The notes beneath the pieces were generated by a model, which was given only the letters and a program-made list of their open reading frames with translations, had not been told where the DNA came from and did not search any database. A DNA stretch of 24,977 nucleotides, taken from IMG/VR virus record IMGVR_UViG_2778261231_000008, one strand, 5' to 3'. Positions 1,449 through 17,016 of this stretch are shown here, piece by piece. The translations under genes and the position numbers were made by a program. Origin of the DNA: a virus. Lineage: Duplodnaviria > Heunggongvirae > Uroviricota > Caudoviricetes. Position 1 is the stretch's first letter. Each line of letters starts with the position of its first letter.

Positions 1449-2018
1449 CTATTTAACATACCTGACTGTTAAACTTATAATTTTACCAATTATTTCAATG
1501 TCTTCTATCTTGCATTCGAAGGCTCTGTTTCCACCCTCGACGAAGATTCTTCCACCGGGTAAACGAGTAATGTCACGGATCGTTATTTCGCCATCAATAC
1601 TTATTACCCATTTACCATCACGTATATCATCAAATTCTTTATCACAAATAAATTCAGAATTGTTATCTGTGATGACAAAAGGTTTTTTAAACGTAGAGGG
1701 TAGAAATCCCTTATCAAAAATATAAAAACCGTCTTTCTGCAATGCTCCATCAGACAATAAATATTTTTCTACTTCTATAGTATTTGTATTTGCTGATGCT
1801 TGCTTTGAACCATGCCCTGTTGTTAGCCAATTAAGCGAGGTGCCCGTTTCAAGGGCGCACTGGATTACCCAATCTGCTGGAAAAATATCACGCATATAGC
1901 GCGTTGCCATGGTGCTCTTAGAAACACCTAAATGATCACAGAGAGCCTGACGGGTACCGAACCCATATGCTTCAACTAAACGTTCTATGGCTTTCTTACC
2001 GCCGCTATTGAAATCCAC
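1449..2018 (-). CDS. cI: Phage 186 CI-like immunity repressor (HTH), no LexA-like S24 autocleavage motif seen
   Basis: The track ORF 1449..2105 begins with GTG; a GTG at 2016..2018 with an upstream GGAGG gives about 189 aa, matching 186 CI length. HTH region ...IERLVEAYGFGTRQALCDHLGVSKSTMATRY...CALETGTSLNWLTTG; no G-D/N-S-M peptidase motif. Start codon is uncertain. Confidence 0.65.
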   Translation of the reverse strand: MDFNSGGKKAIERLVEAYGFGTRQALCDHLGVSKSTMATRYMRDIFPADWVIQCALETGTSLNWLTTGHGSKQASANTNTIEVEKYLLSDGALQKDGFYIFDKGFLPSTFKKPFVITDNNSEFICDKEFDDIRDGKWVISIDGEITIRDITRLPGGRIFVEGGNRAFECKIEDIEIIGKIISLTVRYVK

Positions 2019-2163
2019 AAGTCCTCCAAAGAAATCCAAAATTCGTTGAAAGATTCCAAAAGCGATCTTAAAGTTGAACCAGAAGTGTTCTTTTGGAGCC
2101 TTCACTACTAATCACGACAAACAACGGCTCGCCACAAGCCATATCTAGAAGGAATGTTGCCTT

Positions 2164-2367
2164 ATGACACCTAACATTTCAATTACTCTGAATACACCAC
2201 ATGTCACAATCGAACGTTATAGCGAACTGACTGGCCTTTCTATTGATACGATTAACGACATGTTGGCTGATGGTCGACTACCTCGTCATCGTCTTCGTAA
2301 AGACAAAAAACGTGAAAAGGTAATGATTAACCTGGCTGCTCTGACTGTTGATGCTTTGTCTGCTTAA
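2164..2367 (+). CDS. apl: Apl/Cox-like excisionase / lytic-switch regulator (small HTH protein)
   Basis: 67-aa ORF divergent from the repressor; HTH-like segment [27 protein letters not shown] followed by a basic tail; position between cI and cII as in phage 186. Confidence 0.55.
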
Positions 2368-4531: not shown

Positions 4532-5385
4532 GCACCATCCTGAAATGGGCGGGAAATAAAACCGCCATTATGTCCGAACTGAAAAAACACCTTCCTGCTG
4601 GCCCGCGACTGGTTGAACCTTTCGCGGGTTCCTGTGCTGTGATGATGGAGACCGATTACCCCAGCTATCTGGTTGCGGATATTAATCCTGATTTAATCAA
4701 CCTCTATAAAAAGGTTGCCGCTGATTGTGAATCGTTTATATCTCGCGCCAGAGTTTTATTTGAGATCGCAAACAGGGAGGTGGCTTATTACAACATAAGG
4801 CAGGAGTTTAATTACTCCACTGAAATTACTGATTTCATGAAAGCGGTATATTTCCTGTATCTCAATCGTCATGGTTACCGTGGATTATGTCGCTATAACA
4901 AGAGCGGGCATTTCAACATTCCGTACGGTAATTATAAAAATCCGTATTTCCCTGAAAAAGAAATTCGCGCATTTGCAGAGAAAGCCCAGCGGGCAACGTT
5001 TATCTGCGCAAGCTTTGATGAAACGCTGGCGATGCTGCAGGTGGGGGATGTGGTGTATTGCGATCCGCCGTATGACGGTACGTTTTCCGGCTATCACACT
5101 GATGGTTTCACTGAAGATGACCAGTATCACCTGGCATCCGTTCTTGAACATCGGTCATCAGAAGGACATCCGGTCATTGTTTCTAACAGTGACACATCCC
5201 TGATCCGTTCGCTGTATCGCAATTTTACTCACCACTACATCAAGGCAAAACGCAGCATCGGTGTGGCAGCTGGTGAGAGTAAATCTGCAACAGAAATCAT
5301 CGCTGTTTCCGGGCCGCGCTGCTGGGTGGGATTTGATCCTTCGCGTGGCGTGGATAGTTCTGCCGTGTACGGAGTGCGTGCATGA
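4528..5385 (+). CDS. dam: DNA adenine methyltransferase (Dam-like, GATC N6-adenine)
   Basis: ATG at 4528 ([15 protein letters not shown]...) with AGGAGG upstream; close to E. coli Dam throughout, including the N-terminal AdoMet motif (LVEPFAGS), [16 protein letters not shown] and the catalytic DPPY motif. Confidence 0.9.
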
Positions 5386-7766
5386 GCCATGCTGATATGA
5401 ACAACTGCAGCGGCTTTAACGAGGTCGCCGCAGCATTCTCATGGAACAGCCCGAAAAAGGCCATTAACCCTTATCTGGACCCGGCGGAAGTTGCGCCGGT
5501 TTCTGCGCTTTCAAACCTGATCACTCTGTACGCTGCAGATAACGAGCAGGAACAACTGCGCCGCGAGGCACTGAGTGATCAGGTCTGGGAGCGTTATTTC
5601 TTTAATGAATCCCGTGATCCTGTCCAACGCGAAATGGAGCAGGATAAGCTCATTAGCCGGGCAAAGCTGGCGCATGAGCAGCAGCGTTTTAATCCGGACA
5701 TGGTCATACTGGCGGACGTTAACGCCCAGCCTTCCCATATCAGCAAGCCGCTGATGCAACGTATTGAATACTTCAGCAGCCTGGGCAGGCCAAAGGCTTA
5801 TTCCCGCTATTTGCGTGAGACGATTAAGCCATGTCTGGAACGACTGGAGCATGTACGCGAGAGTCAGCTATCCACTTCTTTTCGCTTTATGGCAATCCAT
5901 GAAGGTCTGGACGGCCTGCTGATATTGCCTGAAATGAGTCAGGATCAGGTGAAACGCTTGTCTACTCTTGTCGCTGCGCATATGAGCATGTGTCTTGATG
6001 CCGCTTGTGGTGATTTGTACGCCACCGATGATGTTAAGCCAGAAGAAATCCGCAAGACATGGGAAAAGGTGGCAGCAGAAACCCTGCGACTGGATGTCAT
6101 ACCGCCTGCGTTTGAGCAACTCCGCCGGAAAAGAAACCGCCGTAAACCCGTGCCCTATGAACTCATTCCGGGTTCGCTGGCGCGTATGTTGTGCGCCGAC
6201 TGGTGGTACCGGAAATTATGGAAGATGCGTTGCGAATGGCGGGAAGAGCAGTTGCGCGCTGTCTGCCTGGTCAGCAAAAAAGCATCTCCTTATGTCAGCT
6301 ATGAAGCCGTGATGCATAAACGTGAGCAGCGCCGTAAGTCGCTGGAGTTTTTCCGTTCTCATGAACTGGTGAACGAAGACGGCGACACGCTGGACATGGA
6401 GGATGTGGTAAACGCCAGCAGCAGCAACCCTGCGCATCGCCGCAATGAGATGATGGCCTGTGTTAAAGGTCTGGAGCTTATCGCGGAAATGCGCGGTGAC
6501 TGCGCCGTTTTCTACACCATCACCTGTCCGTCACGTTTCCATTCCACGCTAAATAACGGCAGGCCCAACCCGACCTGGACAAATGCGACGGTAAGACAAA
6601 GCAGTGATTATCTGGTCGGCATGTTTGCTGCATTTCGTAAGGCGATGCACAAAGCCGGATTGCGCTGGTATGGCGTGCGGGTGGCTGAGCCGCATCATGA
6701 CGGTACAGTTCACTGGCACCTGTTGTGTTTTATGCGCAAAAAAGACCGCCGCGCCATCACTGCATTACTGCGTAAGTTTGCCATCCGTGAAGACCGCGAG
6801 GAGCTGGGCAATAACACGGGGCCGCGCTTTAAGTCTGAGTTGATTAACCCGCGCAAAGGAACGCCGACAAGCTACATCGCGAAATATATCAGTAAGAACA
6901 TTGACGGGCGTGGTCTGGCTGGCGAGATCAGCAAGGAAACGGGTAAATCCCTGCGTGATAACGCTGAATACGTGAATGCCTGGGCGTCTCTGCATCGTGT
7001 TCAGCAATTCCGCTTCTTTGGTATTCCGGGGCGTCAGGCTTATCGTGAACTGCGATTGCTGGCTGGTCAGGCGGCAAGGCAGCAGGGTGACAAAAAAGCA
7101 GGTGCGCCGGTACTGGATAACCCACGCCTTGATGCCATCCTAGCTGCTGCTGATGCTGGTTGTTTTGCCACCTACATCATGAAGCAGGGGGGCGTACTGG
7201 TTCCCCGCAAATATCACCTCATCAGAACCGCTTATGAAATCAACGAAGAGCCGACCGCCTATGGTGATCACGGCATTCGTATTTATGGCATCTGGTCACC
7301 CATTGCAGAGGGCAAGATCTGTACTCATGCAGTGAAGTGGAAAATGGTTCGTAAGGCCGTTGACGTTAAGGAGGCGGCAGCCGACCAAAGCGCTTGCGCC
7401 CCTTGGACTCGTGGCAATAACTGTCCCCCTGTTGAAAAAATGTACCAGACAGGGGGCGAATTATCGGGCAGGCAAGAACCTGCAGCCCTGCCGGACTTCG
7501 AGAATATGAGCAAAAAGGAGCTGCGAGAACTGACAGCGAGGCTGCGACTGGTCAAACCGAAGCGCCGGAAAGGGTACAAACAGGAAATTACGGATCACCA
7601 GCGCCTGCAGCTCGATGCGGAACTGAGGTCCAGAGGCTTTGACGCGAGTGAAACGGAAGTTGATCTGCTTCTACGTGGCGGCAGCTTGCCATCTGGAGCC
7701 GGATTGCGGCTGTTCTACCGGAACCAGCGGCTGCAGGAGGATGACAAATGGCGGCAGTGGTACTGA
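5382..7766 (+). CDS. A: Replication initiation endonuclease A (P2 gpA family, rolling-circle)
   Basis: 794 aa; conserved block [19 protein letters not shown] and ...[12 protein letters not shown]... with the active-site tyrosine region typical of P2 A; start overlaps the dam stop. Confidence 0.85.
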
Positions 7767-7844
7767 AAAGCCAGGATTGAGGTTATCTATTAATCAAAGG
7801 GTTAGCTGAGTAAAAAACTATTTCAGCTTTAAATACATATGTTG

Positions 7845-7864
7845 TACTGTATATATAAACAGTA
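7845..7864. promoter_or_regulatory. LexA (SOS) box, TACTGTATATATAAACAGTA (CTGT-N8-ACAG)
   Basis: Near-perfect match to the LexA operator consensus, 17 nt upstream of the GTG start at 7881 and overlapping a likely -10 (TATAAA). Confidence 0.75.
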
Positions 7865-7880
7865 ATAAGGGGAGGGAGTT

Positions 7881-8066
7881 GTGAACGATTTGTTCATGGA
7901 GTCACTTGCACTGCAGCGGATAGAACTTATGGCCCGGCTGGTCGCCAGTTCAGATTGTAGCGATGACGACAAGGAGGTTGCGATTTCGTGGCTGTCGGAG
8001 CTGACGAGCGATCTGGTTACCAGGCTGAATGAATACGGAGTAGGGCAGGATGAGAGTACGCATTAG
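7881..8066 (+). CDS. SOS-regulated small protein (61 aa); possible Tum-like antirepressor or its remnant
   Basis: GTG start preceded by AAGGGGAGGGAG; lies directly downstream of the LexA box and of gene A, the position of the LexA-controlled tum operon in phage 186. No sequence-level recognition of Tum. Confidence 0.45.
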   Translation: MNDLFMESLALQRIELMARLVASSDCSDDDKEVAISWLSELTSDLVTRLNEYGVGQDESTH

Positions 8067-8248
8067 TGATTTCGCACCATGGGAAACTCCCTCCCATATG
8101 GCATCCTGCAGTTTGAGAAAGCAGTGCATGTCTATGGTGCATGGATTCGCATGATCCGAAAAGGATCGCAACGGGTCGGGGCCGCCAGAACTGGCGCGCT
8201 TTCCGGCCCGTCATGCACCTGCATGAAAACCACTACATAAAGCGGGCA

Positions 8249-8267
8249 GGCGTGGCGGGGATACGAG
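8249..8267. other. Possible cos-site remnant (ggcgtggcggggatacgag)
   Basis: The first 13 nt match the 19-nt cohesive-end sequence of P2/186 as I recall it (GGCG[A/T]GGCGGGGAAAGCA...), then it diverges; lies in a GC-rich non-coding stretch between the SOS gene and the cargo cassette. Confidence 0.25.
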
Positions 8268-8401
8268 CGCGCGCTGATGCAACTTGCAGCTATTGTTTAT
8301 TCATGGGGGGGCATCACACACATAACGGACATTTTTGTTTGAAAAATATAGTGATTGAGGCGATTATTGATGTAACGCTATCAACATAACAAAGGCTTCT
8401 T

Positions 8402-10423
8402 ATGAGCAGTTTTTATTATATCCAGCCGGAATTAAAAAACGATTTTAATGCAAGTTTTTTGAATTCTTTGGAAGAGTATTCCAATCGAAAACAGTTGCAG
8501 GTATATGCTATAAAAAATCCTCTCGGGGAAAATAAGTATAACTATGATAGAGATGACGTTCTGGTGTTATTAAGCCCCGGATGCAAAATGGCATTTATTA
8601 ATTTCGGAGATAATAGTGATGAGTTTGAAAATTTCCAAGAGGATTTTGTCGAGGATTTAGGCTCACTATCTGATAAATACAATTATAAAGATACAATTGG
8701 AAGACCACGTGAATGGCGTCGTAACCTGGTCTCGGATTTTATATTCAATGATATCGATGACGATTTAGATGCGTTTTTTGATGAGATTAAACTCGCGGAT
8801 GGATCGCTTGCAAAAAAGAGCGAGTTAATCATCTCGTTGTTGACTGGTAGTATAAACAATATTGATAAAGTAAAAGGGAATGTTCCTGACAATATCCTTG
8901 ATAAAGTTAAGCAAAAAATAATTTTATTTGATGGAGATCAAACTAGATTTGTATATCAGAAGTTTGATAAGAAAAAAGTAATTATTCAAGGGCTTTCAGG
9001 CACGGGCAAGACAGAACTTTTGCTTCACAAGTTGAAAGAAATATATTTGGATAAGAATAATCATGATAGTAAAATAATGTTTACATGTCATAATAAAATC
9101 TTGGCAGATAGTATGAGAAAGAGGATTCCAGAGTTCTTCAACTTTATGAAAGTTGAACAACAAATTAGCTGGAATGATAGATTGTGGTGTGTAAACGCTT
9201 GGGGATCACAATACGATAATAATTCTGGGGCTTATCGTTATATCTGTGAAGCCTATGGGATAAATTTTCATCGCTTCAGCTATGTCATGACCTTTGATAG
9301 AGTTTGTCGCTTAGCATTGGAAGAAATAAGAAAAATCCCTGAAGGTCAATTCAAACATTGCTTTGATTTTATGTTGGTCGATGAAAGTCAGGATTTTCCA
9401 TCAAGTTTTATCGAGCTTTGTGAGTTAGTAACTCGCGATACACTGTATGTAGCAGGTGATATATTTCAAAGTATATTTGATACCAATATTTCTAATGAAA
9501 TCCAACCTGATTTTTTATTGAGTAAGTGTTACAGAACTGACCCGAGAACTTTAATGTTTGCCCATGGAATTGGCATGGGGTTATTTGAGAGTGAGCCTCT
9601 CACATGGCTCGAAAATGACGAGTGGGAAGCATGTGGCTATATTGTGGACCATTTTGAACGTGCCAAGTTGAGATTGAAACGTGAGCCATTACGTAGATTT
9701 GAAGATGTGACTGATGCCAAAATCCATAGTGTTGAATTAGTTAATTCGACATTTGATACTGAAGAAAAAAACATCTTGGATTTATTGCATAAAATCAAAG
9801 CAGAGAATCCAACTGTTCTAGCTGACGATATCGGTATTATTTTTATCGATAAGGCTAAAAGTATCTTCACTATTGCCGATAAGCTTGAAGTCAGTGTTCC
9901 AAGAATTTTTGGTTGGAAAGTGAATAAGGCTTATGAAACCAAAGAAAAAGTAAAGGATACTTTATTTCTTAGTAATAAAAATCATGTAAAGGGGTTGGAG
10001 TTCCCATTTGTTATTTGTGTTACGCGAGATATTAGTAGAAGCCATTCAGATCGAAATTCTTTATATATGATGCTGACTCGATCCTTTATTCGTTCCTATT
10101 TGCTTTTAGGTGATCGTGATGAAAGTCTTCAGGCTGAAATTCAGCGGGGGTTAGAAAACATTAATGCTCATGGCTATATGGAAATTACCATTCCTCCTCA
10201 AGATGTTATCGAAAGAATAAGGACTACAATTAAGTTTGACGAGAAAAGTATTTCCCATTATGACTTGGTGTCTAAGGTGTTCGATGATCTCAATATTGAG
10301 GCTATATTCAGGCCGTCACTATATGAAATTGTGAAGAATATTCTTCCAGACTCTTTTGATGTTGAAAGGATATCAAAAGTCATTTTGTTTAATTACGAAG
10401 AAATGCTTCAGGAGACAAAATGA
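8402..10423 (+). CDS. SF1 (UvrD/Rep-like) helicase-family ATPase with an unassigned ~190-aa N-terminal domain; candidate anti-phage defence protein
   Basis: 673 aa. Walker A GLSGTGKT (nt 8990..9013), motif II LVDESQDF (9374..9397), motif III GDIFQSIF, motif IV CYRTD, C-terminal motif-VI-like MMLTRSFIRSYLL. Visibly AT-rich codon usage unlike the flanking phage genes. Sits between gene A and the portal gene. Confidence 0.75.
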   Translation: MSSFYYIQPELKNDFNASFLNSLEEYSNRKQLQVYAIKNPLGENKYNYDRDDVLVLLSPGCKMAFINFGDNSDEFENFQEDFVEDLGSLSDKYNYKDTIGRPREWRRNLVSDFIFNDIDDDLDAFFDEIKLADGSLAKKSELIISLLTGSINNIDKVKGNVPDNILDKVKQKIILFDGDQTRFVYQKFDKKKVIIQGLSGTGKTELLLHKLKEIYLDKNNHDSKIMFTCHNKILADSMRKRIPEFFNFMKVEQQISWNDRLWCVNAWGSQYDNNSGAYRYICEAYGINFHRFSYVMTFDRVCRLALEEIRKIPEGQFKHCFDFMLVDESQDFPSSFIELCELVTRDTLYVAGDIFQSIFDTNISNEIQPDFLLSKCYRTDPRTLMFAHGIGMGLFESEPLTWLENDEWEACGYIVDHFERAKLRLKREPLRRFEDVTDAKIHSVELVNSTFDTEEKNILDLLHKIKAENPTVLADDIGIIFIDKAKSIFTIADKLEVSVPRIFGWKVNKAYETKEKVKDTLFLSNKNHVKGLEFPFVICVTRDISRSHSDRNSLYMMLTRSFIRSYLLLGDRDESLQAEIQRGLENINAHGYMEITIPPQDVIERIRTTIKFDEKSISHYDLVSKVFDDLNIEAIFRPSLYEIVKNILPDSFDVERISKVILFNYEEMLQETK

Positions 10424-11055
10424 CAAAAGAATATTATTTTAGCCTTGATCAATCTCAATGCGATTGGGCTTTTAAGGCAATTAGAAATAAAAAAGATGTT
10501 ATTGAAATATTAATGAGGGTTTTAAAGACAATTTCAGTATACACTGAACCATCAGCCGATAAAGTTGCTGGTAAGATGAAGTTACATATATCAAAGATGA
10601 GTCGTGTTTTCTTTTTTAGTGAAGGGAAATACTATTCGTTAGCATTCCCCTTTACGCTGGAAGTTAGTGGAGATAATCTTTGCTTCTGTAGCGGTGAAAT
10701 TGAAGTTATTGACAGTTACATTACTTCTAAAGTGCTTGCGATTATTAATGATTCTTCCTATCTCAACCCATCTCTTTGGGCATTTTTTGAGCCACTAGTA
10801 GAGCTTGAGGATCATCAAACTATTCCAGGATTTTGGCAATTTTTCAAAATGCTGCTTACGCATGAGGATGGATACATCAGATATGATGTTGACCCAGATC
10901 CGAGACGATTAGATCCAAGGAGTCACCCTTTACATCATTTTGATGTTTTCTATTCCAATCAGCCAACGTTCAAAATTGGTCTAAGAGAACATTATACTAA
11001 TGATGATATGATTGACTTATTAAATAGAGAAACTGATTGTCATTTTTTTGAATGA
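10420..11055 (+). CDS. Hypothetical 211-aa protein translationally coupled to the helicase; candidate partner/effector
   Basis: Start ATG overlaps the helicase stop (ATGA at 10420..10423); AT-rich; no motif I recognise. Confidence 0.65.
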   Translation: MTKEYYFSLDQSQCDWAFKAIRNKKDVIEILMRVLKTISVYTEPSADKVAGKMKLHISKMSRVFFFSEGKYYSLAFPFTLEVSGDNLCFCSGEIEVIDSYITSKVLAIINDSSYLNPSLWAFFEPLVELEDHQTIPGFWQFFKMLLTHEDGYIRYDVDPDPRRLDPRSHPLHHFDVFYSNQPTFKIGLREHYTNDDMIDLLNRETDCHFFE

Positions 11056-11065
11056 TGTGAACGTT

Positions 11066-11094
11066 AATTTAGCTGGCAATTAGCCAGCTAAATT
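11066..11094. terminator. Perfect 12-bp-arm palindrome (aatttagctggc / gccagctaaatt); likely bidirectional terminator
   Basis: Hairpin between the convergent 3' ends of the cargo operon (+) and the portal fragment (-); weak U-tract on the + strand. Confidence 0.5.
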
Positions 11095-11097
11095 TCA

Positions 11098-11802
11098 TTA
11101 TAATAAGTAGTCTGTAAATTGGATTATATCTTGGTCCAGATAGGTGTTTAATTCTTCAATTCTTTTTTGCAGTGGTAATAACTCATTTCGAACAAAAACA
11201 TTCGCCGCCTTTTCCACATCCCCAAACCCCCCAACATTACTTGGCATAATCCCCATCATCTGCGGTGGTACACGGTGTGCCGCCATCATGTCATCCCGGC
11301 TCACGTTCTTAATGTTCAAAAACTCATCCTTTGCCGCCACTTCTGACAGTGGAATGATCTGAATGCCATCCTTTTTGCCGTTTGGCGAGTACATAAACAG
11401 GTTGCGGAAATTGCCCGGACCTTTGGCGCTTTTCATGGCCTGGCGGATGTTGTTCACGTCCTCCTGGTTCTGCGCGGCGTCAGTCATATACATAATAAAA
11501 CCCGCGTGACTGCCATTGATGTAATACTTCCGGCGGAACAGCGTGGCTGACTCGTTCAGCAGGGCGGAAGGGATAGCGGACAGATATTCCGGCAGGCCGT
11601 AAATCTCCTGGTTCAAATCTGGCTCCATCAGGTGAAAGATGCTGCCTTTGGTAAACTCATACGGCTGCGTGGTCATGCCGTATTGCACAAACCAGTAGGT
11701 GTCTAAATCGATCCCGCGGCGGGTGTATTTCGCCAGCGATGGCTCCAGTGACAGAATCCCGCCCAGTCGGTTCGTCCGTTTCTCCAGGTAACCTGCAGAA
11801 AG
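11098..11802 (-). pseudogene. Q: Portal protein (P2 gpQ family), C-terminal ~234 aa only
   Basis: Portal-like sequence (...FRRKYYINGSHAGFIMYMTDAAQ...HRVPPQMMGIMPSNVGGFG...) ends at the native stop (11098). The N-terminal ~56 aa of the track ORF is GC-rich low-complexity translation of the antisense of gene S, so the 5' part is deleted. Confidence 0.7.
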
Positions 11803-12230
11803 TTGACGCCTGGCTGGCGGCGCTGCTGGCAAATCTGGAACCAGCGGCGCGAAAGCGAATGATGCTGGAGCTGGCGCAACAGCTGCGCCGGAATCAGCAG
11901 AACAACATCCGCCTGCAGCGCAATCCTGATGGGACTGGCTACGAGCCGCGCCGGGTAACGGCCCGAACAAAGAAGGGTCGCATTAAGCGGCAGATGTTCG
12001 CCAAACTCCGCACCACGAAATACCTTAAAACCGCCGCCAGTGCCGACTCTGCCAGCGTAGAGTTTGCCGGGCAGGTACAGCGCATCGCACGGGTGCATCA
12101 TTACGGCTTACGGGATCGTGTAAGCCGTAAGGGGCCGGAGGTGCGGTATACAGAGCGGCGGTTGCTTGGGATAACTGATAATGATCATGAGATGATTAAA
12201 TCAAGCATACTAGGTTTTTTGATTAAGTAG
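11739..12230 (+). pseudogene. S: Tail completion / virion morphogenesis protein S homologue, nearly full length but without its native start
   Basis: From about nt 11799 the ORF reads like P2 S / Mu G family (RNQQNNIRLQRNPDGTGYEPRR...FAGQVQRIARVHHYGLRD). The first ~18 codons are antisense of portal sequence, so the deletion endpoint is at the S start. Confidence 0.55.
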
Positions 12231-13389
12231 TCTGATCTTTTTCTTTAAAATAACCTTCAATTTTTGCAATTAAAAGACTGATGCTTTCTATAAAGTTTTT
12301 TGTTTCGCTCTCACTTGGTTCATGATGAGTGTGTGCGATTTTATCCCGTAAGTTTTTTCGATTCTCATTGGCTGTTTGCCATTCTAGCTGAGCAATCTCT
12401 GGCACAGATATATTGAACTGTTGTCTAAATAGTTGTTTGCACCTTACCTCAAATTTCCAGTTTTTGTTTAGAATGGCCTTAGTTTCGCATTCATCATGGC
12501 CTTTCTTATTAAGTTCATTGATTAGCAATCTAAGGATGTAGCTTTCAAGTCCAGCTGAAGCTTCGATTACGGCAGATCTTAACGCCCCTTTATGAACAAG
12601 GTTGTTCGCTCTAATTATTAATAATTCAGGGTGTTCATTGAATTCATCTGTCATTAATCGACGTTTAAAATCTTCAATCTGAATTTCATTATGATTGTAC
12701 CAACTATTTCGCATTAGTGGTGTTATTATTCCAACCATAGGTATTGAGCTTACCTTAACTCCATCACAGTAATGTTCTTGCAATACGCCGTTAGTGAAAC
12801 CTAACCCTGCTTGATAAAGAGATATTTCATCAGCGAATTGATCATTGAAGGCTACTCTATACTGCTTTATAAAGTGGTTGATTATACCTATGCATTCTTC
12901 AGATTGTTTGGGCGGAAATATCTCTCTAGCAGTTTTTTTGATACTTTCGAGTTTTGCTACCTTCTCAATATCTAAATTGTCCATCGTAGCTATGTGCTCT
13001 TTGGCCTCATCTTCAGATGGGTAATTGTCACCGCTTCGGATCTGACTTCTAATAGTGTTGATAAATTCCTCTTCTGAAAGTTCAGATAGAACCGCGCATT
13101 CGGCAACACTGGCAAGGGAAATTACAGTGCGGCATTTCATTATTCCTCTGTCGTTTAATATGTGTGGTGTTAATTGTTCCTTGGTTCCGAGCAACAAGGT
13201 TTGTGGGAAAAGATAAGCATCTTTGAATAATGTATAATAATCATTGTGTACAGTTAAACAAAGTTCAGTGTGTTCATAAATAAAATTATATATCCCATCG
13301 GGAATGTTCAGGACATACGGTAATTCAACTAAATAACGAGCCGCGAAAATCATGTGGTCCATCTCCATATGAGAATTGCATTGTGCCAT
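12223..13389 (-). CDS. Hypothetical 388-aa cargo protein with a C-terminal Rx4H (HEPN-like) motif; candidate abortive-infection/defence gene
   Basis: AT-rich reverse-strand ORF between S and V (the orf30 position of P2). Motif RDKIAH at nt 12331..12348. Start uncertain: the ATG at 13351..13353 has the better Shine-Dalgarno (GGAGA). Confidence 0.6.
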   Translation of the reverse strand: MAQCNSHMEMDHMIFAARYLVELPYVLNIPDGIYNFIYEHTELCLTVHNDYYTLFKDAYLFPQTLLLGTKEQLTPHILNDRGIMKCRTVISLASVAECAVLSELSEEEFINTIRSQIRSGDNYPSEDEAKEHIATMDNLDIEKVAKLESIKKTAREIFPPKQSEECIGIINHFIKQYRVAFNDQFADEISLYQAGLGFTNGVLQEHYCDGVKVSSIPMVGIITPLMRNSWYNHNEIQIEDFKRRLMTDEFNEHPELLIIRANNLVHKGALRSAVIEASAGLESYILRLLINELNKKGHDECETKAILNKNWKFEVRCKQLFRQQFNISVPEIAQLEWQTANENRKNLRDKIAHTHHEPSESETKNFIESISLLIAKIEGYFKEKDQTT

Positions 13390-15274: not shown

Positions 15275-15872
15275 CCTGCTGCCGCCTGGTTCGTCAGCAC
15301 TTGAGCGCCGACTGGCGGAGAGCTGCAGCGGCATTTCCGATCTGCAGGTGCCCCTGCGTGACCTCTGGAGCCCGGCAACGTGTCCGGTTGCCTTTTTGCC
15401 GTATCTGGCATGGGCATTTTCCGTGGACCGCTGGGACGAAAGCTGGGCGGAAAGCGTGAAACGCCGGGTGGTGCAGGATGCCTTTTACATTCATCAGCAC
15501 AAGGGCACAACCAGCGCCGTGCGGCGGGTGGTGGAGCCGTTCGGTTTCCTGATCCGCATTCTGGAGTGGTGGCAGACCAACGAGGCCCCCGGCACGTTCC
15601 GGCTGGACATTGGCGTGCAGGACCAGGGGATTACGGAGGAAACCTATCTGGAGCTGGAGCGCCTGATCGGTGACGCCAAACCCTGCAGCCGCCATCTGAT
15701 TGGCATGTCAATCAACCTGCAGACGAGCGGCCCGTTTTGGGTAGGGGCTGGCACCTACATCGGGGAGGAAATCACCGTCTACCCGTATATCAACGAAACC
15801 ATTACTTCCGGCGGCCCGGCCTTTGCGGGCGGGGCGGTCCATGTTATTGACACAGTGAGAGTGAACCCATGA
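15267..15872 (+). CDS. I: Baseplate/tail protein I
   Basis: Start at the ATG at 15267 (MNSLLPPGSS...), internal to the track ORF; LPxLAWAFSVDRWDE...GTFRLDIGV matches P2 gpI. Confidence 0.85.
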   Translation: MNSLLPPGSSALERRLAESCSGISDLQVPLRDLWSPATCPVAFLPYLAWAFSVDRWDESWAESVKRRVVQDAFYIHQHKGTTSAVRRVVEPFGFLIRILEWWQTNEAPGTFRLDIGVQDQGITEETYLELERLIGDAKPCSRHLIGMSINLQTSGPFWVGAGTYIGEEITVYPYINETITSGGPAFAGGAVHVIDTVRVNP

Positions 15873-16717
15873 GCGCAAAATTTTACACCCTGCTGACGGA
15901 CATTGGCGCGGCAAAACTGGCAAGTGCTGCCGCGCTCGGTGTCCCGCTGAAAATTACCAAAATGGCAGTGGGCGACGGGGGCGGTGTGCTGCCGACACCC
16001 AGCGCGCAGCAGACTGGCCTGATTGCAGAAAAGCGCCGCGCCGACCTGAATATGCTCTACATCGACCCGCAGAACAGCAGCCAGATTATTGCGGAGCAGG
16101 TTATTCCTGAAACGGAAGGCGGTTGGTGGATTCGTGAAGTCGGGCTGTTTGATGAGACAGGCGCGCTGATTGCCGTCGGCAACTGCCCTGAAAGCTACAA
16201 GCCGCAGCTGGCGGAGGGCAGCGGGCGCACACAGACCGTGCGCATGGTGCTGATCACCAGTAGCACCGATAACATCACCCTGAAAATTGACCCGGCGGTG
16301 GTGCTGGCAACTCGCAAGTATGTAGATGACAAGGTGCTTGAGCTAAAGGTGTACGTGGATGACCAGATGGCGAAACATATCGCCGCGGTTGATCCCCATA
16401 CGCAGTATGCGCCAAAGACTAGCCCGACCTTTACCGGAACACCAAAAGCACCCACTGCGGCGTCAGGCAATAACACCACCCAGCTTGCCACCACGGCATT
16501 TGTGCAGGCCGCTATTGCGGCGCTGGTCAATTCCTCCCCTGGCGCACTGGACACGCTGAACGAGCTGGCTGCAGCGCTGGGCAATGATCCGAACTTCGCC
16601 ACCACCATGACCAATGCGCTTGCGGGGAAAATGGGTAAGGCTGCCAATCGGCCTGTAGTAACCCATAACGGTGCGGGCTACCGCGCCAGAACTCACTTTT
16701 TCAGGACAAGAACATGA
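15869..16717 (+). pseudogene. H: Tail fibre protein H, N-terminal ~254 aa only
   Basis: N-terminal and conserved middle block (...SSPGALDTLNELAAALGNDPNFATTMTNALAGK) match P2 gpH; after about nt 16630 the frame runs ~28 unrelated codons to a stop. P2 H is about 670 aa. Confidence 0.8.
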
Positions 16718-17016
16718 GCGACAAAACAAACGAAAAAACTGTGGTACTGGATACGCCAATCCTGCGCGGCAAAAGCGAAATCAAAGAGGTGGTGCTGCGT
16801 AAACCCCAGTCTGGTGCGCTGCGTGGCACCCGCCTGCAGGCCATTATGGATATGGACGTGGGCGCGATGATGACCATCATTCCGCGAATCTCCAGCCCGA
16901 CGCTGACCCCGCAGGAAATGGCGGAGCTGGACCCGGCAGACCTCACCGCAATGTCCGTGGAGGTGGTCACTTTTTTGTTGAAGAAGTCGGTGCTTGCCGA
17001 TTTGCCGACAGCCTGA
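16714..17016 (+). CDS. E: Tail assembly chaperone E
   Basis: 100-aa ORF upstream of the tape-measure gene, carrying the slippery heptamer T_TTT_TTG. Confidence 0.8.
   Translation: MSDKTNEKTVVLDTPILRGKSEIKEVVLRKPQSGALRGTRLQAIMDMDVGAMMTIIPRISSPTLTPQEMAELDPADLTAMSVEVVTFLLKKSVLADLPTA
16971..16977 (+). other. Programmed -1 frameshift site T_TTT_TTG producing the E' (E+E') product that terminates at 17150
   Basis: My manual -1 frame translation from 16977 runs open to a TGA at 17148..17150, overlapping the T start; this mirrors the E/E' arrangement in P2. Confidence 0.7.

What the first reader, a model, noticed from the sequence alone, without database searches (positions are those of the whole stretch)
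7845..8066. Near-consensus LexA box directly upstream of a small gene downstream of A: 186-type SOS induction circuit
TACTGTATATATAAACAGTA lies 17 nt upstream of a GTG-start 61-aa ORF with a strong Shine-Dalgarno. The repressor here has no S24 autocleavage motif. In phage 186, induction works through a LexA-repressed antirepressor (Tum) encoded in this position. The ORF is much shorter than I would expect for Tum and is followed by a GC-rich non-coding stretch, so it may be truncated or a distinct SOS-induced factor.
Basis: partly seen in the sequence, partly recalled or inferred. Interest (0 to 1): 0.5.

Follow-up and report, generated by a model that had tools for sequence, protein, structure and literature searches.

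The report
SOS-controlled prophage antirepressor gene (tumA)
This is the DNA-damage switch of a phage-186-like prophage: a LexA-repressed promoter driving a 61-residue homologue of the antirepressor half of 186 Tum. It is a known kind of circuit, so the finding is correct but ordinary.

Summary
TACTGTATATATAAACAGTA (7845-7864) differs from the LexA consensus at one base, and no shuffle of the window gave a match. It lies 16 nt before a GTG ORF with a good Shine-Dalgarno (7881-8066, 61 aa), just downstream of replication gene A.

The ORF is not a truncated tum. It is a homologue of residues 4-54 of 186 Tum, the antirepressor half. It falls in the same PHROG as Fels-2 STM2728, and profile matches link it to PSP3 tumA. 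Both of those are natural stand-alone "upstream halves" of tum. The identical 61-aa protein occurs in hundreds of assemblies, in the order A, 61-aa gene, cos, variable cargo, portal.

The LexA box keeps its position in distant homologues. It decays only in remnants.

The window holds no DinI-like sequence, so this lineage carries tumA alone. The "GC-rich non-coding stretch" is the cos packaging site, with the cohesive-end equivalent at 8249-8267.

The repressor is 186-CI type and lacks the S24 Ser motif and the conserved Lys.

Verdict: a new member of a known kind. It differs in lacking a dinI partner and in sitting in a defective E. coli prophage. LexA binding and TumA-CI antagonism are inferred, not shown.

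The parts
7822..7850 (+). Putative p95-like SOS promoter: -35 TTCAGC (7822-7827), 17-nt spacer, -10 TACTGT (7845-7850), which is the left arm of the LexA box
   Evidence: Assigned by position from the annotated p95 of phage 186 (TTCACA, 18 nt, TACTGT, with the -10 inside the LexA box). The consensus scanner did not call it because the -10 is weak. Inferred, not mapped.
7845..7864 (.). LexA (SOS) box TACTGTATATATAAACAGTA
   Evidence: It has 1 mismatch to the consensus, and 0 of 100 shuffles gave a match. The identical box sits at the same 16-nt distance in 19 of 23 loci with this gene type (18 identical or nearly so; L028 differs at 2 bases and was scored at 19 nt). A box is also present in distant homologues from Brenneria and Serratia and in 186, PSP3 and Fels-2.
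7871..7878 (+). Shine-Dalgarno (GGAGGGAG)
   Evidence: Read directly from the sequence. It is conserved in related loci.
7881..8066 (+). tumA-type gene, 61 aa: stand-alone homologue of the antirepressor (N-terminal) half of 186 Tum
   Evidence: phrog_698 E 1.5e-21, phrog_8554 E 1.5e-11, phrog_1993 E 2.5e-5, phrog_189 E 7.7e-5 over positions 6-54. BLASTP against 186 Tum gives E 8e-10 over residues 7-54 of both proteins. A family profile against Tum gives hhalign probability 95.4%. It is 50% identical to Fels-2 STM2728. The AlphaFold2 model is a two-helix hairpin with pLDDT 88.
8123..8275 (.). cos packaging region; the 19-nt cohesive-end equivalent GGCGTGGCGGGGATACGAG is at 8249-8267
   Evidence: Positions 8183-8274 are 77% identical to the junction of the right and left ends of phage 186, E 5e-17, and the first 13 nt of the 186 cohesive end are identical. 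The same 150 nt are conserved at about 78-82% in Klebsiella, Salmonella and Escherichia P2-like phages and at 89-100% in most loci that carry this tumA.
1449..2018 (-). cI repressor of 186 type, the presumed target of TumA. The probable GTG start is at 2018 (189 aa); the mechanical ORF extends to 2105.
   Evidence: Pfam Phage_CI_repr E 3e-31 plus Phage_CI_C E 5e-29; Peptidase_S24 scores only 16 bits, below its 23.3 cut-off. PDB 2FJR (186 CI) matches at E 1.5e-31 over the full length. There is no Ser motif and no conserved Lys. The start is inferred from homologues.
2164..2367 (+). apl/cox-like excisionase-repressor, first gene of the early operon that CI represses
   Evidence: phrog_575, E 1e-29.
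5382..7766 (+). Replication gene A, immediately upstream of the SOS module
   Evidence: Pfam Phage_GPA, E 7e-128.

Best explanation
This is the SOS-induction module of a 186-like (P2-family) prophage. In undamaged cells, host LexA binds the box at 7845-7864. The box overlaps the -10 region of a p95-like promoter and keeps the 61-aa gene silent. DNA damage activates RecA and LexA cleaves itself, so the gene is transcribed. Its product is a two-helix hairpin homologous to the N-terminal half of 186 Tum. It binds the 186-type CI repressor non-covalently and stops CI from binding its operators. That derepresses the early lytic promoter (apl, cII, A).

The gene is the natural stand-alone 'TumA' form seen in PSP3 and Fels-2, but here it has no dinI-like partner. 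The module ends directly at the cos site.

Shown by sequence:
- the box and its conserved position;
- homology to the Tum N-terminal half;
- a 186-type CI without S24 catalytic residues;
- the cos site.

Inferred: LexA occupancy, SOS inducibility and the TumA-CI interaction.
For: - LexA box: 1 mismatch to consensus, 0 of 100 shuffles.
- Layout: the same as phage 186, where the annotated p95 -10 and LexA site lie 18 nt before GTG-tum downstream of A. PSP3 (box 20 nt before tumA) and Fels-2 match as well.
- Homology to Tum residues 4-54: BLASTP E 8e-10; hhalign 95.4%, E 1.6e-8.
- Reciprocal PHROG matches link the window ORF, Fels-2 STM2728, PSP3 TumA and 186 Tum.
- The 186 record annotates only full-length Tum as 'inhibits CI DNA binding'. 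The internal-start products annotated from residues 47 and 71 lack the homologous region.
- Literature: p95 is LexA-regulated and Tum inhibits CI (PMC7708051). Tum is an antirepressor half fused to a DinI half. PSP3 and Fels-2 split the two, and in PSP3 the upstream gene carries the antirepressor activity (PMC3121763, Discussion). The PSP3 record annotates tumA as 'UV induction of prophage'.
- It is a real conserved gene. There are 73 clusters at 50% identity, mostly 55-75 aa. The exact protein is listed in 608 index blocks of the assembly collection, in intact prophages ordered A, 61 aa, cos, cargo, portal.
- The box is intact in 19 of 23 loci of this type. It is degraded only where A is truncated or where an insertion separates A from the ORF.
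- The repressor is 186 CI type without the S24 Ser motif or Lys.
Against: - No experiment exists for this subfamily (phrog_698). The PSP3 evidence reaches me only as a personal communication cited second-hand and as a GenBank note.
- Similarity to PSP3 TumA itself is weak (hhalign probability 17%).
- The promoter hexamers are weak and were not called by the scanner.
- The identical TumA is paired with CI proteins whose C-terminal domains are only 27-54% identical. That fits a conserved N-terminal target but could also mean CI is not the target.
- The prophage in this window is defective, so induction cannot yield virions here.
Confidence: 0.8

Rival explanations
1. The ORF is a truncated or pseudogenised tum. 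The 330 bp after it would then be the decayed DinI half and orf97.
For: The ORF is 61 aa against 146 aa for 186 Tum. No annotated gene follows for about 330 bp.
Against: tblastn with five DinI/Tum C-terminal queries finds nothing in the whole window or in any of 27 related loci, yet it finds DinI immediately after tumA in 186, PSP3, Fels-2 and a Klebsiella phage. The 61-aa length is fixed across hundreds of assemblies and 73 sequence clusters. The downstream DNA is cos.
Confidence: 0.03
2. The gene is a genuine LexA-controlled small protein whose function is not CI antagonism. It might modulate the host SOS response or another host regulator, as the database name 'levan regulatory protein RlsC' suggests. 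Or it might act on other co-resident prophages rather than on its own repressor.
For: No direct test exists for this clade. Identical proteins sit beside CI repressors with divergent C-terminal domains. Some sources name the family 'Levan regulatory protein'. The gene survives in remnants that lack cI and A (L006). Trans-acting antirepressors are known (PMC3121763).
Against: It is homologous to exactly the part of Tum that distinguishes the CI-inhibiting product. In every intact locus it co-occurs with a 186-type CI, cII and A. In remnants the LexA box decays, which argues against an independent host-beneficial role. The RlsC name is an unverified annotation transfer.
Confidence: 0.12
3. The LexA-like palindrome is a chance AT-rich sequence or a binding site for another protein, and the ORF is expressed with the early operon by read-through from A.
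For: The region is AT-rich (33% GC). No strong + strand terminator is predicted between A and the ORF.
Against: No shuffle of the window gave a match. The box keeps its position in homologues whose proteins are only 30-60% identical and whose flanking DNA is unrelated: Brenneria, Serratia, 186, PSP3, Fels-2.
Confidence: 0.03

Closest known systems
Coliphage 186 SOS operon (p95, LexA box, tum, orf97) with the CI repressor
   Same: The gene lies directly downstream of A and before cos. The LexA box overlaps the -10 and sits 16-18 nt before a GTG start. The product is homologous to Tum residues 4-54. The CI is of the same family (PDB 2FJR, E 1.5e-31).
   Different: 186 Tum is 146 aa with a fused DinI-like C-terminal half and internal starts that give DinI-like modulators. 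186 also has orf97 and two terminators before cos. Here there is no DinI sequence and no orf97, and cos follows within about 60-180 nt.
PSP3 tumA/tumB and Fels-2 STM2728/STM2726.1 (split tum)
   Same: All have a stand-alone upstream gene of about 60 aa behind a LexA box after A. Fels-2 STM2728 is 50% identical to the window protein and in the same PHROG (698). PSP3 tumA is annotated as responsible for UV induction.
   Different: Both have a separate dinI-like gene immediately downstream (offset of about 190-200 nt). The window and all 27 related loci examined have none. PSP3 TumA belongs to a different PHROG (1993) and is only weakly similar.
Gifsy GfoA/GftA, Fels-1 FsoA and N15 AntC (LexA-controlled small antirepressors)
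   Same: They share the logic: a non-cleavable repressor is inactivated by a small LexA-repressed protein, and trans action between prophages is possible (PMC3121763).
   Different: These are different phage families with a different operon order (dinI first). No sequence relationship was tested or detected here. They are analogous, and homology was not shown.
Lambda-type induction (S24 self-cleaving CI/LexA-like repressors)
   Same: The repressor's C-terminal domain gives a sub-threshold S24 match (16 bits, profile positions 56-116), which suggests a distantly related fold.
   Different: The Ser motif region is absent (a gap in the alignment) and the Lys position is Arg or Val. The repressor is not expected to autocleave.

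Membership tests
186-type SOS induction module (LexA-repressed Tum antirepressor) | A LexA box overlaps the promoter immediately upstream of the gene | tested here: met
   The box has 1 mismatch to consensus and lies 16 nt before the start. The position equals that of annotated 186 p95. LexA binding itself was not tested.
186-type SOS induction module (LexA-repressed Tum antirepressor) | The gene lies between replication gene A and cos | tested here: met
   A is at 5382-7766 and cos at 8183-8275.
186-type SOS induction module (LexA-repressed Tum antirepressor) | The product is homologous to the N-terminal (antirepressor) half of Tum | tested here: met
   BLASTP E 8e-10; hhalign 95.4%; reciprocal PHROG matches.
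186-type SOS induction module (LexA-repressed Tum antirepressor) | A DinI-like half is present, fused (186) or as an adjacent tumB (PSP3, Fels-2) | tested here: not met
   There is no DinI-like hit at E<=1e-3 in the window or in related loci, while the positive controls were found. So this is a TumA-only variant, not Tum in the strict 186 sense.
186-type SOS induction module (LexA-repressed Tum antirepressor) | The cognate repressor is of 186 CI type and is not self-cleaving | tested here: met
186-type SOS induction module (LexA-repressed Tum antirepressor) | The protein binds CI and prevents operator binding, and the prophage is SOS-inducible | not testable with these tools
   This needs EMSA, pull-down, reporter and induction assays.
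DinI family (RecA-filament binding) | A DinI fold or sequence of about 80 aa | tested here: not met
   The ORF matches only positions 6-54 of the 151-position phrog_189 profile, which is the non-DinI part. There is no NCBIfam or Pfam DinI hit.
Peptidase S24 self-cleaving repressors (for the cI gene) | A catalytic Ser (G-x-S-M motif) and Lys dyad | tested here: not met
   S24 scores 16.1 bits against a 23.3 cut-off and covers only profile positions 56-116. The Ser motif aligns to a gap and the Lys column holds R or V.

The most novel reading that the evidence does not exclude
The DinI-less TumA could be a broad-specificity 'master key' antirepressor that targets the conserved N-terminal DNA-binding domain of 186-type CI proteins. 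One identical 61-aa protein would then induce, or cross-induce, many prophages whose CI C-terminal domains have diverged. Even the copy in this defective E. coli prophage could trigger co-resident 186-like prophages in trans after DNA damage.
Probability: 0.25. Interest if true: 0.45.

Novelty: new member of a known kind. Interest (0 to 1): 0.22.

Why it matters
The finding gives a function to a very common small protein that databases currently leave blank or mislabel. Sources call it 'hypothetical', 'levan regulatory protein RlsC' or 'iron-containing alcohol dehydrogenase'. PHROGs 698, 8554 and 1993 are all listed as 'unknown function', and there is no Pfam or NCBIfam model.

It predicts that a large clade of P2/186-like prophages in Escherichia, Klebsiella, Enterobacter, Citrobacter and relatives is SOS-inducible through an antirepressor, unlike P2 itself. 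This is relevant because these prophages carry the defence-system hotspot next to cos.

It also shows that the dinI partner of tum is dispensable in nature. It does not reveal a new mechanism.

Tried and rejected
- Rfam scan of 7600-8500 at permissive E-value: only a NiCo riboswitch match at 19 bits against a 64.5 gathering score, taken as chance. No known RNA family explains the stretch.
- Search for a DinI remnant or orf97-like sequence after the ORF: nothing found.
- ORFs 8079-8240 and 8141-8389 in the 'non-coding' stretch: the second matches phrog_28685 (unknown function). It overlaps the conserved cos DNA, so I regard it as a spurious ORF family riding on conserved DNA.
- Pfam hits of the 61-aa ORF (KH_SLS1_2, Unstab_antitox) lie far below their cut-offs and were rejected. 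NCBIfam and PADLOC gave none.
- PDB sequence search with the family profile: none.
- Foldseek against PDB with the pLDDT-88 model: only generic helical hairpins at E>1, which is uninformative.
- The consensus promoter/terminator scan called neither the p95-like promoter nor a + strand terminator after the ORF.
- The search for related loci with the 45-sequence alignment failed because no stretch was conserved enough. A 10-sequence alignment worked.
- Bunny et al. 2002 (PMC151935) is not held, so the PSP3/Fels-2 split-tum statement is cited through PMC3121763 and the GenBank records.
- E. coli complete genomes hold no close copy of this module; the best match is 88.9% identity over the end of A. 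The flanking YbjL protein is nonetheless the exact E. coli sequence.

Full report
**Observation**

The 20-mer TACTGTATATATAAACAGTA lies at 7845-7864. It differs from the LexA consensus TACTG(TA)5CAGTA at one base. It is the only match in the 24,977-bp window at up to 3 mismatches, and none of 100 dinucleotide-preserving shuffles gave a match. The CTGT-N8-ACAG palindrome is perfect.

Sixteen nucleotides further on (not 17), after GGAGGGAG, a GTG opens a 61-codon ORF (7881-8066). Gene A (794 aa, Pfam Phage_GPA, E 7e-128) ends at 7766.

**What the ORF is**

Pfam, NCBIfam and PADLOC hold no model for it. PHROGs does:

| PHROG | E-value | Note |
|---|---|---|
| phrog_698 | 1.5e-21 | also holds Fels-2 STM2728 |
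| phrog_8554 | 1.5e-11 | |
| phrog_1993 | 2.5e-5 | also holds PSP3 TumA |
| phrog_189 | 7.7e-5 | positions 6-54 of the 151-position 'DinI' profile, which is really full-length Tum |

In the reverse direction, 186 Tum matches phrog_189, 1993, 8554 and 698 through its first 60 or so residues. PSP3 TumA is phrog_1993 and Fels-2 STM2728 is phrog_698.

Direct comparisons agree:
- BLASTP against 186 Tum aligns residues 7-54 with 7-54 without gaps (29% identity, 65% positives, E 8e-10).
- A 45-sequence family profile aligns to Tum 4-51 at 95.4% hhalign probability.
- Identity to Fels-2 STM2728 is 50%.
- Similarity to PSP3 TumA is weak on its own.

The 186 GenBank record annotates only full-length Tum as inhibiting CI DNA binding. 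The internal-start products annotated from residues 47 and 71 lack the region homologous to the window ORF and are described as modulators.

Lemire et al. (PMC3121763, Discussion) state three things. Tum is an antirepressor fused to a DinI-like half. Fels-2 and PSP3 have the two halves split by a stop codon. In PSP3 the upstream gene carries the antirepressor activity. The PSP3 record names these genes tumA ('UV induction of prophage') and tumB.

The window ORF is therefore a TumA-type gene.

**Not a truncation**

- tblastn with the Tum C-terminal half, PSP3 TumB, two phage DinI proteins and E. coli DinI finds nothing in the window. It finds nothing in any of 27 related loci either. The same search finds DinI 186-199 nt after the tumA start in 186, PSP3, Fels-2 and a Klebsiella phage.
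- A scan of 1.84 billion representative proteins gives 73 clusters, nearly all 55-75 aa.
- The closest 120 relatives are 93-98% identical and mostly 61 aa. They come from Enterobacter, Klebsiella, Citrobacter, Lelliottia, Cronobacter, Leclercia and E. coli.
- The exact protein is listed in 608 index blocks of the assembly collection. In intact prophages the order is always cI, apl, cII..., A (794 aa), 61-aa gene, cos, variable cargo, portal, terminase.

The AlphaFold2 model is a confident two-helix hairpin (helices 2-23 and 28-55, pLDDT 88). It has no informative structural neighbours.

**The LexA box is conserved where it should be**

| Phage or locus | LexA box | Distance to start |
|---|---|---|
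| 186 (annotated; -10 of p95 is its left arm) | TACTGTATGTTTATACAGTA | 18 nt before GTG-tum |
| PSP3 | TACTGTATAAATATACAGTA | 20 nt before tumA |
| Fels-2 | TACTGTAAATATAAACAGTG | upstream of STM2728 |

Among 23 loci with the window-type gene, 19 keep an intact box, at the same 16-nt distance in all but L028 (scored at 19 nt). The four exceptions are decaying or disrupted:
- L006 and L024 have CTG changed to CTT and a truncated A gene. In L024 the ORF itself is cut to 23 codons.
- L026 has a 1-nt deletion in the spacer and a degraded A gene.
- L021 has about 2 kb inserted between A and the ORF.

Distant homologues from Brenneria and Serratia (57-62% protein identity, unrelated flanks) also carry a box. 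This pattern argues for selection on the box in functional phages.

By position, the window promoter would be TTCAGC (7822-7827), 17 nt, TACTGT (7845-7850). This is inferred. The consensus scanner does not call it.

**The repressor**

ORF 1449-2105 (-) carries Pfam Phage_CI_repr (E 3e-31) and Phage_CI_C (E 5e-29). Peptidase_S24 reaches only 16 bits (cut-off 23.3) and covers profile positions 56-116. The protein matches the 186 CI crystal structure sequence 2FJR over its full length (E 1.5e-31).

The G-x-S-M Ser motif falls in a gap in all 186-type proteins, and the catalytic Lys column holds Arg or Val. The likely true start is the GTG at 2018, giving 189 aa.

**The 'GC-rich non-coding stretch' is cos**

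Positions 8183-8274 align at 77% (E 5e-17) to the junction of the right and left ends of phage 186. Positions 8249-8267 (GGCGTGGCGGGGATACGAG) correspond to the annotated 19-nt cohesive end GGCGTGGCGGGGAAAGCAT. The same 150 nt are the only part of 7700-8420 conserved across Klebsiella, Salmonella, Yersinia and Escherichia P2-like phages.

The locus between gpA and gpQ around cos is the known P2 defence hotspot (PMC9122126). Here the low-GC cargo at 8402-11055 sits between cos and a truncated portal gene.

**Mechanism**

LexA occupies the box and occludes the promoter. SOS-induced LexA self-cleavage allows TumA synthesis. TumA binds CI reversibly and blocks operator binding. The early promoter then fires. 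The p95-Tum-CI logic is established for 186 (PMC7708051). For this window it is inferred by homology and synteny.

One further hint concerns the target. Prophages that carry the identical TumA have CI N-terminal domains 65-85% identical, but C-terminal domains only 27-54% identical. This suggests the DNA-binding domain is the target and allows for cross-induction. It is inference only.

**Context**

The host is E. coli or Shigella. The flanking 561-aa protein is exactly YbjL, although no complete E. coli genome in the collection holds this prophage. L005 (GCA_900604275.1) has the same layout as the window.

The prophage is defective:
- the portal gene is truncated and abuts the tail S gene;
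- terminase, scaffold, capsid, lysis, sheath and tube genes are missing;
- the tail-fibre gene is truncated.

The SOS module is nevertheless identical to that of intact relatives.

**Verdict**

The novelty is small. This is a new member of the known Tum/TumA antirepressor kind. It is a dinI-less variant of the operon, in a protein family that databases leave unannotated or misname.

Noticed in passing
window 8402-11055: A low-GC (about 30%) two-gene cassette sits between cos and the portal remnant, in the known P2 cos-proximal defence hotspot. The first gene encodes a 673-aa UvrD/SF1-like helicase (PADLOC 'Helicase' PDLC03002, E 5e-28; weak GajB matches). The second encodes a 211-aa protein with no family match in Pfam or PADLOC. 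Relatives with the identical tumA carry other cargo here (PIN_12, SEFIR, unknown genes).
   Followed up: partly
window 11098-13389 and 15869-17016: The prophage is defective. The portal gene is truncated and overlaps the tail S gene. Terminase, scaffold, capsid, lysis, sheath and tube genes are absent, and the tail-fibre gene H is cut to 282 aa. A 388-aa low-GC ORF on the minus strand (12223-13389) has no Pfam match and only a marginal PD-T4-2_B hit. It sits between S and V.
   Followed up: partly
L004, L007, L008, L009 (cI genes) versus window 1449-2018: Prophages with a 100% identical TumA have CI repressors whose N-terminal HTH domains are 65-85% identical, while their C-terminal oligomerisation domains are only 27-54% identical. 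This suggests TumA targets the N-terminal domain, or that the C-terminal domains diversify for another reason.
   Followed up: partly
window 7881-8066 (database names of the protein): Sources label this protein family 'hypothetical protein', 'Levan regulatory protein (RlsC)' or 'iron-containing alcohol dehydrogenase'. RlsC is an Erwinia amylovora activator of levansucrase expression (PMC3445560). Whether RlsC is truly a TumA homologue, and hence a prophage antirepressor-like protein, was not checked.
   Followed up: no
L006 (GCA_031216605.1, locus 5167-12186) and L024, L026: These are remnant copies. The tumA gene and cos-side cargo survive next to the host ybjL-type gene and an ars operon, without A or cI. 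Their LexA boxes are mutated (CTG to CTT, or a 1-nt spacer deletion). This shows how the module decays once the phage is lost.
   Followed up: partly
L021 (Klebsiella michiganensis DSM 25444), about 2 kb between A and tumA: A GC-rich insertion of about 2 kb replaces the promoter and LexA box, leaving only the Shine-Dalgarno and the ORF. The inserted element was not identified.
   Followed up: no
window 8141-8389: An 82-codon ORF across the cos site matches phrog_28685 (E 3e-19, unknown function). It is most likely a spurious ORF family created by conserved cos DNA being annotated as protein in many phage records.
   Followed up: partly
window 16145-16160: A second CTGT-N8-ACAG palindrome (CTGTTTGATGAGACAG) lies inside the tail-fibre gene. 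About 0.27 such matches are expected by chance per window, so this one is probably chance.
   Followed up: no
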